Shown here: positions 143 through 8,924 of the stretch, one piece after another
How positions within the stretch are numbered: position 1 is the first letter of the stretch
Layout: each line of letters begins with the position of its first letter
Origin: a virus
Lineage: Duplodnaviria; Heunggongvirae; Uroviricota; Caudoviricetes
Direction: 5' to 3' (one strand)
DNA: 8,924 nucleotides
Virus record (IMG/VR): IMGVR_UViG_2731957997_000009
Notes under the pieces: generated by a model
The model's input: the letters and a program-made list of their open reading frames with translations, nothing else
Databases searched by the model: none
What the model was told of the DNA's origin: nothing
Program-made: the position numbers and the translations under genes

Positions 143-493
143 GCCCTGTTTATGGCGCTCAGGAGCCAGCGCCCACCTGCCGGGCTAATCCACCACTCTG
201 ATCGAGGTTCACAGTACTGCGCATACGATTACCGGGTCATACAGGAGCAGTCTGGTCTGAAAACATCAATGTCGCGTAAAGGTAACTGTTACGACAACGC
301 TCCGATGGAAAGCTTCTGGGGAACGCTGAAAAATGAGAGCCTGAGCCACTATCGTTTTAATAACCGGGATGAAGCCATCTCAGTAATACGGGAATACATT
401 GAGATTTTCTACAATCGTCAGCGTCGTCACTCTCGTCTGGGGAATATCTCCCCGGCAGCCTTCAGGGAAAAATATCATCAGATGGCTGCTTAA
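143..493 (+). pseudogene. IS3-family transposase OrfB (DDE integrase) C-terminal fragment
   Basis: Translation ALFMALRSQRPPAGLIHHSDRGSQYCAYDY...SMSRKGNCYDNAPMESFWGTLKNE...RHSRLGNISPAAFREKYHQMAA carries the HSDRGSQY and CYDNA..ESF motifs of IS3-family OrfB. The six-frame ORF 116-493 is chimeric: its first 9 codons lie in the terminal repeat of the neighbouring IS. Confidence 0.8.
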
Positions 494-537
494 AAAAAGA
501 ACAAATGGTAGTGTCCGCTATTGCCAGTACACCTCAG
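143..537 (+). mobile_element. 3'-terminal fragment of a second IS3-family copy, including its right inverted repeat
   Basis: Encodes the OrfB C-terminus and ends with ...gtgtccgctattgccagtacacctcag at 537. The same 105 bp recur in inverted orientation at 8820-8924. The 5' part of this copy is replaced by the minus-strand IS at 1-142. Confidence 0.75.
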
Positions 538-895
538 GGTGTTTGTCCACACCAAACCTGCCTACCGAAGCGACGGAACAAAAACAGCAGCGGTAAGGAA
601 GATGAGAACCGACAGCAACAAGGCATGGAAGGGAGCGTTAAAGCGGGCAGGCATTAGCAACTTCCGCTTCCATGACCTGAGGCATACCTGGGCAAGCTGG
701 CTGGTTCAGTCCGGTGTCTCTCTTCTTGCGCTTAAAGAGATGGGAGGATGGGAAACTCTCGAAATGGTTCAAAGATACGCCCACCTTTCAGCCGGGCATC
801 TTACCGAGCACGCGAGCAAAATCGATGCGATTATAAGTCGCAATGGCACAAATACGGCACAAGAGGAGAACGTAGTTTACTTAAATGCGAGGTAA
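538..895 (+). pseudogene. int: Phage (P22/lambda-type) tyrosine integrase, C-terminal ~119 aa only; N-terminal part removed by the IS insertion at 537
   Basis: Translation ...[44 protein letters not shown]... contains the HxxR box and the catalytic Tyr region (RYAHL) of tyrosine recombinases. The reading frame enters directly from IS sequence, so the upstream catalytic Arg and N-terminal domains are absent. Stop TAA at 893-895. Confidence 0.8.
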
Positions 896-909
896 CTTAT
901 TGATTTAAA

Positions 910-955
910 TGGTGCCGATAATAGGAGTCGAACCTACGACCTTCGCATTACGAAT
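910..955 (-). other. att core: 3' 46 nt of a tRNA-Thr(CGU) gene (thrW-type), anticodon loop through CCA; not an intact tRNA
   Basis: Reverse complement attcgtaatgcgaaggtcgtaggttcgactcctattatcggcacca folds as anticodon loop (anticodon CGT), variable loop, T arm (gtagg/ttcgact/cctat), acceptor 3' strand and CCA. The sequence expected for the D arm and acceptor 5' strand is absent at 956-1000. The CCA end lies 15 bp from the integrase stop. Confidence 0.8.
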
Positions 956-1156
956 TATAAGAATCCGCTTGTAATTCAAAGGATTATCCCATCAACACTG
1001 CGCTCACACGTCCCACCACATCAAAACATGTAAAGCCTTGCAAGCCATTGTGAGGCCTTATGTGTCTCAGTTTTGTCTCATCAGACATAGCAAGTATCGA
1101 TCAATTGAGACTTGGATGATAGACTTCATGCCTTTCAGAGCTCATTGATTAAATAA

Positions 1157-1519
1157 ATGTTAAAGTTATTTGTAAAGTACACATCTATAGGTGTGCTGAA
1201 CACACTTATACACTGGGTGGTTTTTGGTGTATGTATCTATGCCGCACATACCAGTCAGGCTCTGGCAAACTTCACAGGTTTCGTAGTGGCTGTGAGCTTT
1301 AGCTTCTTCGCGAATGCAAGATTCACATTCAAAGCATTGACTACAGCGATGCGCTACATGTTATACGTGGGATTTATGGGAATATTGAGTGTGATTGTTG
1401 GTTGGGCAGCTGATAAATGCTCACTTCCTCCAATAGTCACTCTTATCACCTTCTCCGCCATCAGTCTGGTGTGCGGTTTCGTCTATTCAAAGTTCATTGT
1501 CTTTAGGGATGCGAAATGA
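1157..1519 (+). CDS. gtrA: GtrA, bactoprenol-linked glucose translocase (flippase) of the O-antigen glucosylation operon
   Basis: 120-aa small four-helix membrane protein [24 protein letters not shown]...[10 protein letters not shown], matching the conserved GtrA of serotype-converting phages. Its stop overlaps the gtrB start (ATGA at 1516-1519). Confidence 0.9.
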
Positions 1520-6983: not shown

Positions 6984-7012
6984 AAAAAGGCGCAATTAAT
7001 TGCGCCTTTTTA
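6984..7012. terminator. Rho-independent terminator, potentially bidirectional
   Basis: aaaaa-ggcgcaa-ttaa-ttgcgcc-ttttta: perfect 7-bp GC-rich stem with 4-nt loop, A-tract upstream and T-tract downstream, starting 2 bp after the acyltransferase stop. Confidence 0.7.
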
Positions 7013-7754
7013 TAGATATATAGCGCATATTTATGCTCAGATTATACTGTTAAAATTAATGCGCAAATGTTACGGTTTTCTTTCCTAGCAACTGAAGGGA
7101 ATGTTCGAAGTGCAAACATAAAATTACCCCTTCACTGAACAGATATTCAGTCGACCAACACATGAGAAAGAAATACACCAGATGAATTAAAATATCATAT
7201 ACTTATTAATCAAAGAAATAAAAGCATAAACAGTAGGTGGTGACGCTGATAAACTGGCTATAAACAACCTGGAAGGTGATGAGCTATCGCAATATAATTT
7301 ATTGGCGAATTATTTGAAGCCAATTGATAACACCAGTGCTCAAAAGACTCCCCCCGGTAACCATAAGTAGCTAATATCTAGTACAGTTTCGATATCTATT
7401 ATCGTTACTGCGTCGATATAGTCTAAATAGCTGCACCTAATTCTGCCACACTTGTCGTTTACAGATGGGTAATGTGTTGCGTATGGGCAACAAAACTCAA
7501 GCCAGATATAACACAACCTAGCTGAGAACGCCTTCCTGATGCTTCGCCCAGCAAGGGCTGAGCGAAAGTGGAGCACTTTTCTGCGCAGCTATTTAGGACA
7601 GTATTGAGTCATATTGTTTATGTATGAGTTAAGTTTCGTAATATCAATTAAATAAAATAAGTTGAAATCATTGTAGAAGTGAGCATTATACCCAGGCTAC
7701 CTGAACCTACTGAAAAACGAGTATTATTCCAACAATTATCCTAGATTAACAAGT

Positions 7755-8156
7755 CTATTTATTTGGATGCATAGGCCACTCGGGTTTTACTACATTAACA
7801 CGCATAAGCAGCACCCGATATTTTTTCCATGCCAGTAACAGTTTCGTTTCATCATCTGTTGCCATACCTAAATCAACCGCATCCTGAAGCGGAGCTATTA
7901 CATTCGTTGCCTCTGCTATCAGTGCAGATTTCTTTTCATCATTTATTAAGGCTAATTGTTCTGGTGTTGGAGAAGGACGGTCAACAATGACAGGATGACC
8001 GTTCTCACCACAGGTAATCATTTTTGTTACACTCTGTGCATTAATCAGTGTTTTCCACTCTGATTCCGAGATTTCCACTGCATCATCAGGAATATTGGTG
8101 CCGTGAAATTCAGTCGAATAAAATCCGTTTGTCGATGCAGAATAAAAATATGACAT
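7755..8156 (-). CDS. Phage tail fiber assembly protein (Tfa / gpG / U-type chaperone)
   Basis: C-terminal VIAPLQDAVDLGMATDDETKLLLAWKKYRVLLMRVNVVKPEWP matches the conserved Tfa C-terminus (lambda Tfa ...IAPLQDAADLEIAT..LLEAWKKYRVLLNRVD...WP). Start reassigned to the ATG at 8156-8154 (MSYFYSAS...), 4 nt after the tail fiber stop. The longer ORF from 8252 would overlap the fiber gene by about 90 nt. Confidence 0.8.
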   Translation of the reverse strand: MSYFYSASTNGFYSTEFHGTNIPDDAVEISESEWKTLINAQSVTKMITCGENGHPVIVDRPSPTPEQLALINDEKKSALIAEATNVIAPLQDAVDLGMATDDETKLLLAWKKYRVLLMRVNVVKPEWPMHPNK

Positions 8157-8160
8157 TTTG

Positions 8161-8811
8161 TTAATATCCCATTGCAATGTAATACGCATCAGCAGATGAA
8201 CCGTATCCTGAACCGGGCGACACAGTAATATTAAATCCAGTGTTCTGGACACTTGTCGCCGATACAGTCGGCTGCCCAGCCGCGCCAGTAACGTTCAATG
8301 TAACTACGACAGCAATTACTCTTGAGAACGTCATCGGGAACCTCATCCCGTATGTTGAAGATACATTCGGGGCACCATTCAACTGACCGCACTGTAAAAT
8401 TAATCCAGACGGAAATTTTTGCGCAGCAGCCGTTACGGTATTAATTGACGCGAACAGGCTCATATCAGGTATCTGATTCGCCCCTGTACCTACATTCCTT
8501 TTAGCTGCTTCTCCCAAACCAAGGTTTTCGAGAGCCGTTTTCACCGTGCCATCCGATTTGATATCGCCAAACGGATTCTTGCGGCTTAACAGCAGCGCGC
8601 GAAGTGCGGTAAGCAACTGATCGTGCCGCCCCTTCTCCAGGCTGGCACCGGATGCCTCCACCACGCTGCAAAGCTCCTCCTGCAACATGTCAAAGTAGTC
8701 ATCATCCAGATCGGTGGCAGGCGTGCCAGTCTGGGGGTTACCACGGGTAAAACCGTTCTTACCCGCGCCGAACTTATCCTTCTTCGCGGTTTTCGTGTCT
8801 ATACGATGCAT
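8161..8811 (-). CDS. Phage side tail fiber protein, unusually short (216 aa)
   Basis: N-terminus MHRID...[28 protein letters not shown]...[10 protein letters not shown] resembles the conserved N-terminal domain of Mu S / P1 S-type fibers (from memory). C-terminus ...[25 protein letters not shown] is a typical fiber tip. Followed immediately by the tfa chaperone gene. Confidence 0.7.
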
Positions 8812-8819
8812 GGATTACT

Positions 8820-8924
8820 CTGAGGTGTACTGGCAATAGCGGACACTACCATTTGTTCTTTTTTTAAGCAGCCATCTGATGATATTTTTCCCTGAAGGCT
8901 GCCGGGGAGATATTCCCCAGACGA
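8820..8924 (-). mobile_element. IS3-family element right end (partial, continues beyond window end), inverted relative to the copy at 143-537
   Basis: 8820-8924 is the exact reverse complement of 433-537 (105 of 105 by manual comparison), including the terminal repeat and the end of OrfB. Confidence 0.85.
8864..8924 (-). CDS. IS3-family transposase OrfB, C-terminal end (partial at window edge)
   Basis: Reverse complement encodes ...RLGNISPAAFREKYHQMAA-stop, identical to 433-493. Confidence 0.7.
   Translation of the reverse strand, partial: RLGNISPAAFREKYHQMAA

What the first reader, a model, noticed from the sequence alone, without database searches (positions are those of the whole stretch)
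433..8924. An 8.3-kb serotype-conversion block bracketed by identical inverted IS3-family ends
The 105 bp at 8820-8924 are the exact reverse complement of 433-537. Both copies present their right terminal repeat towards the internal segment (int fragment, att core, gtrABC, IS10-like element, acyltransferase, tfa, tail fiber). That is the geometry of a composite-transposon-like unit, and of a substrate for homologous-recombination inversion between inverted IS copies. Either would make the whole O-antigen modification and receptor-recognition module mobile or invertible as one unit. The identity can only be checked over 105 bp because the window ends.
Basis: seen in the sequence. Interest (0 to 1): 0.6.

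Follow-up and report, generated by a model that had tools for sequence, protein, structure and literature searches.

The report
IS600-bracketed SfII prophage remnant (SHI-O)
The inverted repeat is real: two opposed copies of insertion sequence IS600 sit at the deletion scars of a decayed SfII serotype-converting prophage in the known SHI-O island of Shigella flexneri 2a, and the 8.3-kb block between them has been flipped by recombination in some strains, with no sign that it ever moved as a transposon.

Summary
Window 433-537 is the exact reverse complement of 8820-8924. Both are the right end of IS600, with the IS proper ending at 536 and starting at 8821.

The block between them is 99.7% identical to the attR-proximal arm of Shigella phage SfII: gtrA, gtrB, gtrII, ISSfl9, oacD, tfa and the tail fibre. 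It also carries 359 bp of a different prophage's integrase and a thrW att core. This is the published SHI-O / SfII remnant of S. flexneri 2a.

The composite-transposon reading fails.
- Neither bracketing IS600 has a 3-bp target duplication in any pairing, although two simple IS600 insertions nearby do (CTT, AGC).
- The left copy in this window is only its last 395 bp, split by a nested IS600.
- All 16 S. flexneri chromosomes examined carry the block in the same proA-adrA interval.
- gtrII is on no plasmid, and no E. coli genome has the junctions.

The inversion reading is supported.
- In the window-type genome the block's att core is inverted relative to thrW.
- In 2457T and a 2b strain the block lies the other way round.
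- 2457T carries a recombinant integrase.

Deletions and a tandem duplication between neighbouring IS copies also occur. This is ordinary IS-driven prophage decay and rearrangement, with low novelty.

The parts
1..141 (-). 5' part of a nested, complete IS600 (left inverted repeat tip at 141; orfA start codon at about 77). It inserted into the left bracketing IS600.
   Evidence: IS600 positions 1-141 on the minus strand. In CP106857.1 the interrupted IS600 continues on the far side of it.
142..144 (.). AGC, one copy of the 3-bp target duplication made by the nested IS600 insertion.
   Evidence...GGTAAAGC|IS600|AGCCCTG in L004, against the uninterrupted IS600 sequence GGTAAAGCCCTG.
142..536 (+). 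Left bracketing IS600 (copy B). Only its last 395 bp are present (IS positions 870-1264), comprising the orfB C-terminus (stop at 493) and the right inverted repeat (about 507-536).
   Evidence: NF033516 transpos_IS3, profile positions 262-369 of 369; rve, rve_3, rve_2.
537..895 (+). 3' fragment of a tyrosine integrase gene (dint3) from a different lambdoid prophage once resident at thrW. It is not the SfII integrase.
   Evidence: About 69% identical to SfII int. 98% identical to a full-length E. coli prophage integrase. Pfam Phage_integrase.
905..951 (-). att core: reverse complement of the 3' 40-47 nt of tRNA-Thr(CGU) thrW. This is the attR junction of the SfII prophage.
   Evidence: No complete tRNA in the window. 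The core matches thrW in L010, L011 and L006, and SfII attP at 24846-24885.
1157..3902 (+). gtrA (1157-1519), gtrB (1516-2445) and gtrII (2442-3902): the O-antigen glucosylation operon that gives serotype 2.
   Evidence: 99.7% identical to phage SfII. Pfam GtrA_DPMS_TM and Glucos_trans_II. GT2 family.
4268..5563 (-). ISSfl9 (IS4 family, IS10-like); transposase at 4292-5482. It is already present in free phage SfII.
   Evidence: I2 terminal repeats; NF033591.
5933..6982 (+). oacD acyltransferase (SfII_25), followed by a perfect 32-nt palindrome at 6982-7013 that SfII annotates as a terminator.
   Evidence: Acyl_transf_3; I15. The function (6-O-acetylation of GlcNAc, O-factor 10) is as cited in PMC8973906.
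7755..8189 (-). Tail fibre assembly gene (SfII_24).
   Evidence: Caudo_TAP.
8161..8811 (-). Short tail fibre gene (SfII_23). SfII homology stops at 8820, which is SfII position 16968, 5 nt before the end of the baseplate gene SfII_22.
   Evidence: Gp53-like_C.
8821..8924 (-). Right bracketing IS600 (copy C): its last 104 bp including the right inverted repeat. It is a complete 1264-bp copy in the matching genomes. Its outer end abuts SfII xis position 26193.

Best explanation
The window is the core of SHI-O, the serotype-conversion island of Shigella flexneri 2a. It holds the attR-proximal 7.9 kb of an SfII prophage integrated at tRNA-thrW between proA and adrA, plus the 3' stub of an older neighbouring prophage's integrase.

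The two IS600 copies are deletion scars and were not delivery vehicles.
- The right copy replaces about 32 kb of SfII, running from xis through the early, lysis, head and tail genes to the baseplate.
- The left copy cuts off the neighbouring integrase.
- The result is gtrABII and oacD fixed in the chromosome without a working excision or lytic apparatus.

As a by-product the block is bracketed by inverted IS600 homology. It is also embedded in further direct and inverted repeats: a third IS600, IS629-like elements and two 99%-identical integrase genes.

Host homologous recombination between these repeats (inferred; no recombinase was tested) has produced the variants seen among strains.
- Inversion of the block. 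The window-type genome is in the inverted state.
- Re-inversion in 2457T.
- Loss of the adjacent oacB module.
- Deletion next to the nested IS600.
- A tandem duplication.

The gtr and oacD genes sit with their upstream regions inside the block. Flipping is therefore expected to be phenotypically silent (inferred).
For: Identity with SfII
- Window 892-8820 is 99.7% identical to SfII 24898-16968.
- Intact SfII-like prophages carrying this block without IS600 exist in E. coli A21 and two other strains.

Deletion junctions
- The inner end of the right IS600 lies at SfII 16968 and its outer end at SfII 26193, inside xis, 186 bp from an intact integrase gene.
- The left IS600 abuts an integrase fragment that is 69% identical to SfII int and 98% identical to an E. 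coli lambdoid prophage integrase.

Target duplications
- The bracketing copies have none, in any pairing.
- Two plain IS600 insertions nearby have CTT and AGC.

Fixed locus
- All 16 chromosomes carry the block between proA and adrA.

Inversion
- Each genome has three thrW att cores.
- The one next to gtrA is inverted relative to thrW in L006 and L010 and direct in 2457T.
- 14 of the 16 chromosomes have the tail-fibre end towards adrA. 2457T and CP055138.1 have the dint3 end towards adrA.

Recombination footprints
- The proA-side integrase of 2457T is a hybrid. Four diagnostic SNPs are int2-type (alignment positions 414-817) and eleven are int1-type (930-1274).
- CP026788.1 equals CP106857.1 minus the DNA between two direct IS600 copies.
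- CP058589.1 lacks the oacB module between direct IS600 copies. It repeats the block with a 12,065-bp period between IS629-like direct repeats.

Literature
- Little SfII sequence remains in SHI-O of Sf301 and 2457T apart from the genes for antigenic variation, and IS elements mediate inversions around SHI-O (PMC1550401).
- oacB lies in a transposon-like structure flanked by an integrase gene and IS elements, upstream of adrA (PMC4206707, PMC8973906).
Against: - The window contains neither thrW nor the outer IS600 ends. The orientation and duplication arguments therefore rest on genomes that match the window at 8922-8923 of 8924 bases, and not on the window itself.
- The crossover sites of the inversions are not resolved. 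IS600 copy SNPs are too few and are scrambled, probably by gene conversion. Getting from the common arrangement to 2457T needs an inversion plus a conversion or deletion, and two routes are equally parsimonious.
- Orientation calls depend on public assemblies across 1.3-2.6-kb repeats, and some may be misassembled.
- RecA dependence is assumed and was not tested.
Confidence: 0.88

Rival explanations
1. The 8.3-kb block with its two IS600 copies is a composite transposon that inserted, or can insert, as one unit and so makes O-antigen modification mobile.
For: - Two copies of one IS flank a cargo in inverted orientation.
- In most strains both copies are full length with intact transposase reading frames.
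- The neighbouring oacB module has been called 'transposon-like' in the literature (PMC4206707).
Against: - There is no duplication outside the unit (GTC versus AAG), and none in the pattern expected after inversion.
- Both inner junctions are internal prophage breakpoints.
- In this window the left copy lacks its outer end and 869 bp of its body.
- The block occupies one locus in all 16 genomes.
- gtrII is absent from all plasmids searched, and the junctions from all E. coli genomes searched.
- The outer ends would be two left ends. IS3-family elements transpose through a circle that joins one left and one right end. That is established for IS911, IS2 and IS3 (my knowledge) and is untested for IS600.
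Confidence: 0.03
2. The block is a programmed invertible segment, a phase-variation or host-range switch like the Mu G or P1 C tail-fibre segments.
For: It contains tail-fibre and tail-fibre-assembly genes and is bounded by inverted repeats. Both orientations exist in nature.
Against: - No invertase gene was found among the window ORFs scanned against NCBIfam and Pfam. The shorter ORFs were not scanned.
- The repeats are whole IS elements and are not short recombinase sites.
- The prophage has lost every other virion gene, so there is no tail-fibre function left to switch.
- Orientation looks fixed by lineage, at 14 versus 2 of 16 genomes, and not mixed.
- No gene is split by either boundary in a way that inversion would repair.
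Confidence: 0.02
3. The opposite orientations among strains are assembly artefacts, and the block has never inverted.
For: IS600 (1.26 kb) and the 2.6-kb IS600-plus-integrase repeat of 2457T exceed short-read and Sanger read lengths. One assembly (CP058589.1) shows many small indels.
Against: - The att-core test is internal to each assembly. It shows the inverted state in the majority arrangement, reproduced in 13 independent assemblies.
- The canonical state appears in two unrelated assemblies with different flanks, 2457T and CP055138.1.
- The hybrid integrase of 2457T is an independent recombination footprint.
Confidence: 0.05

Closest known systems
SHI-O serotype-conversion island / SfII prophage remnant of S. 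flexneri 2a (Sf301, 2457T)
   Same: It has the same genes, the same thrW (proA-adrA) locus and the same IS-eroded state. 2457T itself is one of the matching loci (L011). PMC1550401 reports that little SfII sequence remains in SHI-O of 2457T and Sf301 apart from the genes for antigenic variation.
   Different: Nothing essential differs. The window's strain additionally has a nested IS600 in the left IS600, and its block is in the opposite orientation to 2457T. I found no paper in the searchable library that describes this orientation polymorphism explicitly. The primary papers (Wei 2003, Wang 2014, Sun 2014) were not available.
Free phage SfII (NC_021857 / KC736978)
   Same: 99.7% identity over tail fibre, tfa, oacD, ISSfl9, gtrII, gtrB, gtrA and attP.
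   Different: The phage has no IS600 at these positions, has its own integrase next to attP, and has the 32 kb that the window's locus has lost.
oacB 'transposon-like structure' upstream of adrA (Wang et al. 2014, as cited in PMC4206707 and PMC8973906)
   Same: It is the immediate neighbour of the block. It is also a prophage end (integrase, att core, O-antigen acyltransferase) bracketed by IS600 copies, and it shares the right-hand IS600 with the block.
   Different: Its IS600 copies are direct repeats. It is lost by recombination between them in CP058589.1 and is absent from the 2b strain.
Classical composite transposons with inverted IS arms (Tn10, Tn5)
   Same: Inverted copies of one IS flank a cargo.
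   Different: There is no flanking target duplication and no second location. One arm is defective here, and the IS family (IS3, copy-out-paste-in) is different.
IS-mediated chromosomal inversions and deletions in Shigella
   Same: The mechanism class is the same: recombination between dispersed IS copies. PMC1550401 reports IS629-, IS1- and IS600-associated inversions, including one around SHI-O.
   Different: The scale here is small (8-13 kb) and lies inside the island. The reported inversions are larger, involving segments over 5 kb and up to about 500 kb.

Membership tests
IS600 (IS3 family) | Near-identity to IS600 over its length, with orfA/orfB (DDE 'rve' transposase) and terminal TG...CA inverted repeats | tested here: met
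   The arms match a 1264-bp IS600 at 99.5-100% identity. RefSeq annotates the same sequence as 'IS3-like element IS600 family transposase'. NF033516 and the rve domains match. The ends read TGAGG...CCTCA.
IS600 (IS3 family) | 3-bp target-site duplication at simple insertions | tested here: met
   CTT flanks the copy in int1, and AGC flanks the nested copy. The two bracketing copies themselves lack one.
Composite transposon | Two intact copies of the same IS with usable outer ends | tested here: not met
   In the window and its matching genomes the left copy is only positions 870-1264. In CP026788.1 its 5' part is deleted. In CP106857.1 it is separated by a nested IS600. Both copies are intact in 2457T, CP012137.1 and others.
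Composite transposon | Direct target-site duplication immediately outside the two outer ends | tested here: not met
   The outer flanks are GTC (left) and AAG (right). In 2457T the outer flanks are inverted copies of each other because the repeat extends into xis and int.
Composite transposon | The unit is found at more than one genomic location or replicon | tested here: not met
   All 16 S. flexneri chromosomes carry it between proA and adrA. Plasmids gave no match. No E. coli genome has either junction.
Composite transposon | Transposase-dependent movement of the whole unit | not testable with these tools
   This needs a mating-out or transposition assay.
SfII-type serotype-converting prophage integrated at thrW | A gtrA-gtrB-gtr(type) operon next to an att core identical to the 3' end of tRNA-Thr thrW | tested here: met
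SfII-type serotype-converting prophage integrated at thrW | A complete, inducible phage genome (int, xis, immunity, replication, lysis, head and tail genes) | tested here: not met
   Only SfII 16968-24898 remains next to the att core. Beyond the right IS600 lie 186 bp of xis and an integrase gene. It is a remnant.
Recombination-invertible segment between inverted repeats | Inverted homology long enough for RecA-type recombination | tested here: met
   395 bp at 99.5% in this genome, 1264 bp in most strains and about 2.6 kb in 2457T.
Recombination-invertible segment between inverted repeats | Both orientations observed relative to fixed flanking markers | tested here: met
   Orientation of the att core against thrW, and proA/adrA anchoring across 16 genomes.
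Recombination-invertible segment between inverted repeats | The crossover maps to this particular IS600 pair | tested here: inconclusive
   The SNP patterns of the IS600 copies are not diagnostic. The common inverted state fits recombination between the left IS600 and a third IS600 beyond oacB. The 2457T state fits either IS600 x IS600 or int x int recombination.
Programmed (site-specific) invertible tail-fibre segment (Gin/Cin/Pin type) | A serine invertase gene and short crossover sites at the borders | tested here: not met
   No invertase was found among the window ORFs scanned against NCBIfam and Pfam. The shorter ORFs were not scanned. The borders are IS600 ends.

The most novel reading that the evidence does not exclude
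The gtrII-oacD cassette sits in a nest of IS600, IS629-like and integrase repeats. These could make it a high-frequency flip, duplicate or delete module within living populations. Its copy number (the tandem duplication in CP058589.1), its linkage to oacB or its loss (2a to Y) might then vary on epidemiological time scales. That would tune O-antigen modification or phage and immune escape, as opposed to being a set of rare frozen accidents.
Probability: 0.08. Interest if true: 0.45.

Novelty: already known. Interest (0 to 1): 0.22.

Why it matters
gtrII and oacD define the O-antigen of serotype 2a, the leading S. flexneri serotype and a vaccine target. Three practical points follow.
- In this lineage the determinant is locked in a decayed prophage, so it can no longer spread by induction.
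- It is not a transposon either.
- It is surrounded by repeats that allow inversion, loss or duplication by ordinary recombination. This matters for serotype stability, for PCR or genome-based serotyping, and for assembling this region correctly.

None of this changes current understanding of IS-driven genome decay in Shigella.

Tried and rejected
- All target-duplication pairings were compared and none matches. These were each IS on its own, outer-outer across the unit, and the outer-inner reverse complement expected after inversion.
- SNPs across about 25 IS600 copies were compared to find a chimeric copy that would place the crossover. Only 22 variable sites exist and their patterns are scrambled. 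The left copy of 2457T carries the 5' signature of the nested copy. The result is inconclusive.
- ARAGORN found no tRNA in the window, so the att core was identified by matching thrW in related loci instead.
- The gtrII plasmid search gave no match.
- Junction searches in 5,426 E. coli genomes found no record covering a junction.
- The 37 bp between the left IS600 and the IS629-like element is not SfII sequence. Its origin was left open.
- The primary papers that probably describe this locus were not held in the library. They are Wei 2003 (PMC153260), Wang 2014 (PMC3993362) and Sun 2014 (PMC4187690).
- Two literature searches combining IS600 with gtrII or oacB returned nothing.
- A single-step route from the common arrangement to 2457T was considered and rejected. 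Every route I could construct needs an inversion plus a gene conversion or deletion.
- I did not use the large protein-homology, structure-prediction or RNA tools, because nothing here called for them.
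Full report
**1. The observation**

The repeat finder reports arms 433-540 and 8817-8924, 108 nt at 99% complementarity. About 2e-56 such pairs are expected by chance in 8.9 kb.

Both arms are the 3' end of IS600. I extracted a complete 1264-bp copy from a related chromosome. It starts TGAGGTAGCC and ends ACACCTCA. RefSeq annotates the same sequence as 'IS3-like element IS600 family transposase'.

The IS ends at window position 536 on the left and begins at 8821 on the right. 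The few further matching bases are flank bases that match by chance.

The left limit of 433 is an artefact of the window's end. Left-hand homology to IS600 runs from 142 to 536.

**2. What lies between the repeats**

Window 892-8820 is 99.7% identical to Shigella phage SfII (NC_021857) positions 24898-16968. In order it carries the following features.
- attP core
- gtrA, gtrB and gtrII
- an IS4-family element, ISSfl9, already present in the free phage
- the acyltransferase SfII_25, which is oacD
- the tail-fibre assembly gene
- the short tail-fibre gene

Positions 905-951 are the reverse complement of the 3' end of tRNA-Thr(CGU) thrW. No whole tRNA is present.

The integrase fragment at 537-895 is not SfII's. 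It is about 69% identical to SfII int. It is 98% identical to the integrase of an E. coli lambdoid prophage that also sits beside a thrW core. It is therefore the stub of an older neighbour in a tandem prophage array.

**3.

Positions 1-141 are the 5' end of a second IS600 on the minus strand. Its left inverted repeat tip is at 141.

It inserted into the left bracketing copy at IS position 869-872, with a clean 3-bp duplication, AGC. The left bracketing copy therefore consists, in this window, of only its last 395 bp.

The window matches two chromosomes almost exactly: CP026788.1 (1 mismatch in 8924) and CP106857.1 (2 mismatches).
- In CP106857.1 the other 872 bp of the split IS600 lie beyond the nested copy.
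- In CP026788.1 they have been deleted together with about 3 kb. The boundaries are those expected from recombination between the nested copy and another direct IS600 copy sitting in the thrW-proximal integrase gene.

**4. The right copy beyond the window**

In all 16 related S. flexneri chromosomes fetched through the GtrII and tail-fibre proteins, the right copy is a full 1264-bp IS600 with a transposase reading frame.

Its outer end abuts SfII position 26193, inside xis, 186 bp upstream of an intact 387-aa integrase gene. Its inner end abuts SfII 16968, 5 nt before the end of the baseplate gene SfII_22.

This one IS600 therefore stands in place of about 32 kb of phage: the rest of xis, the early, replication and lysis genes, cos, and the head and tail genes. 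The block is a prophage remnant with IS600 at its deletion scars.

**5. Test of the composite-transposon reading**

IS600 makes 3-bp target duplications. Two plain insertions in the same region show CTT and AGC.

The bracketing copies show none.
- The left copy has GTC outside and GGG inside.
- The right copy has CTC inside and AAG outside.
- No pairing matches: each IS alone, outer with outer, or the outer-with-inner reverse complement expected if individually duplicated copies had later recombined.

The distribution evidence agrees.
- The unit occupies one locus only. Every one of the 16 chromosomes has it between proA-thrW and adrA.
- gtrII is on none of 72,556 plasmids.
- Neither inner junction occurs in 5,426 complete E. 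coli genomes.
- The same block without IS600 is part of free SfII. It is also part of intact SfII-like prophages in E. coli A21, FDAARGOS_144 and SCU-124, where baseplate genes continue past the tail-fibre gene.

The vehicle for this cargo is the phage. IS600 arrived afterwards and destroyed that vehicle.

A further point rests on my own knowledge of IS911, IS2 and IS3. IS3-family elements transpose through a circle that joins one left and one right end. The outer ends of this inverted pair are two left ends. This has not been tested for IS600.

**6. Test of the inversion reading**

A prophage integrated at thrW must leave its distal att core as a direct repeat of the tRNA's 3' end.
- In the window-type genome (L006) and in CP012137.1 (L010), the core next to gtrA is inverted relative to thrW.
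- In 2457T it is direct.

The maps against fixed anchors agree.
- Thirteen chromosomes read adrA, IS629-like, IS600(80-1264), hyp207, oacB, int2, IS600, tail fibre ... gtrA, att, dint3, IS600, ... thrW, proA.
- A fourteenth, CP058589.1, also has the tail-fibre end towards adrA. It has lost the oacB module and repeats the block.
- 2457T reads adrA, ... oacB, int2, IS600, dint3, att, gtrA ... tail fibre, IS600, int, thrW, proA.
- The 2b strain CP055138.1 has adrA, IS600(80-1264), dint3 ... tail fibre, IS600, int2, att, and then the gtrA-gtrB-gtrX of an SfX prophage. This is the fully canonical order.

The block therefore exists in both orientations between the same chromosomal anchors. The window carries the non-canonical one.

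**7. Which repeats recombined**

In the common arrangement both the gtrA-side core and the oacB-side core are inverted relative to thrW. This fits a 13-kb inversion between the left IS600 and a third IS600 beyond oacB.

2457T shares the inverted oacB module but has the block re-inverted. Its proA-side integrase is a hybrid.
- Four diagnostic SNPs nearest the IS600 are of the oacB-side (int2) type.
- Eleven SNPs nearest thrW are of the thrW-side (int1) type.
- The switch lies between alignment positions 817 and 930.
- In 2457T the inverted repeat extends to IS600 plus 186 bp plus most of int, about 2.6 kb.

Either of two routes explains this. One is IS600 x IS600 inversion followed by gene conversion. 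The other is int x int inversion followed by gene conversion. I could not separate them, because IS600 copy SNPs are too few and are scrambled.

That inversion happened is shown.

**8. Other outcomes of the same repeat scaffold**

- CP058589.1 lacks hyp207-oacB-int2, which is the segment between two direct IS600 copies.
- CP058589.1 also repeats [IS629-like, IS600(80-1264), block, IS600, 37 bp] twice, with a 12,065-bp period between IS629-like direct repeats. The two copies differ by 9 mismatches and 13 gap openings in 10.7 kb. The duplication needs read-level confirmation.
- Other strains carry an IS66-family element inside the left IS600, or a group II intron nearby.

**9. Relation to what is known**

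The region is the published SHI-O island.
- PMC1550401 reports that little SfII sequence remains in SHI-O of 2457T and Sf301 apart from the genes for antigenic variation. It also attributes inversions around SHI-O to IS elements.
- PMC8973906 and PMC4206707 place gtrIIBA and oacD on the SfII prophage between proA and adrA.
- The same two papers describe oacB in a 'transposon-like' structure flanked by an integrase gene and IS elements upstream of adrA.
- The absence of oacB from the 2b strain matches the PCR survey in PMC4206707, where 0 of 61 serotype 2b strains were positive.

I found no searchable paper that states the orientation polymorphism of the gtrII block. The primary genome and oac papers were not available.

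**10. Verdict**

The element is a known IS-eroded prophage remnant.

The transposon hypothesis is contradicted by every test available. The recombination-substrate hypothesis is borne out by natural variants. This is the ordinary behaviour of repeat-rich Shigella chromosomes and nothing indicates a programmed or functional switch. Interest is low and novelty is essentially nil beyond a tidy account of the structural variants.

Noticed in passing
L017/L018 (CP058589.1, 355954-388669): The whole block with its IS600 arms appears twice in tandem (12,065-bp period) between IS629-like direct repeats, and the oacB module is missing. The copies differ by 9 mismatches and 13 gap openings in 10.7 kb, so this could be a real duplication or a noisy assembly.
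   Followed up: partly
L011 (2457T, AE014073.1) 17643-19099 versus 5375-6831: The proA-side integrase is a recombinant of the two 99%-identical integrase alleles, with the switch between alignment positions 817 and 930. In 2457T the inverted repeat around the block is about 2.6 kb (IS600 + 186 bp of xis + int), against 1.26 kb elsewhere.
   Followed up: yes
window 1-144; L004 5565-8095; L006 6438-8095: One IS600 is nested inside another with an AGC duplication. CP026788.1 has additionally lost the DNA between this nested copy and a direct IS600 copy in the thrW-side integrase. The boundaries are those expected from recombination between the two copies.
   Followed up: yes
L006, L010 and L011: three copies of the thrW 3' core per genome: Three att cores lie in the proA-adrA interval: thrW itself, the one beside gtrA and the one between int2 and oacB. 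This points to at least three successive integrations at thrW (an older lambdoid prophage, SfII and an oacB-carrying Sf101-like phage).
   Followed up: partly
window 4255-5576: ISSfl9 (IS10-like ends CTGAGGGATCCCC / CTGAGGAATCCCC at 4268 and 5563) is flanked by an imperfect 9-bp repeat, CCCGAAAGG / CCTAAAAGG. It sits in a palindromic stretch that SfII annotates as a terminator. It is already in the free phage and, frameshifted, in E. coli A21.
   Followed up: partly
E. coli A21 (NZ_CP028754.1), FDAARGOS_144 and SCU-124; hits H1-H3: Three E. coli chromosomes carry gtrII, oacD and ISSfl9 at 98.7-98.8% identity. In A21, the only one inspected, they lie within what looks like a complete SfII-like prophage. 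The Shigella type II O-antigen modification genes therefore also circulate in E. coli.
   Followed up: partly
L008/L009 4125-8095; L004 2550-4058; L005 4799-6307: In LR213455.1 and CP045941.1 the left IS600 is itself split by an IS66-family element (9-bp overlap of the IS600 coordinates across the split). Group II intron reverse-transcriptase genes lie close by in several strains.
   Followed up: no
L005/L019 (oacD called at 270 aa); L025 (gtrII called at 428 aa, ISSfl9 transposase split): Some assemblies show truncated oacD or gtrII reading frames inside the block. These are either genuine inactivating mutations, which would affect serotype, or sequencing errors.
   Followed up: no
window 6983-7754: About 770 bp between oacD and tfa has no annotated gene in SfII. 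The 78-aa ORF at 7340-7576 (minus strand) has no Pfam or NCBIfam match. Several E. coli relatives annotate two tail-fibre assembly genes in this region, so it may be a decayed second tfa.
   Followed up: no
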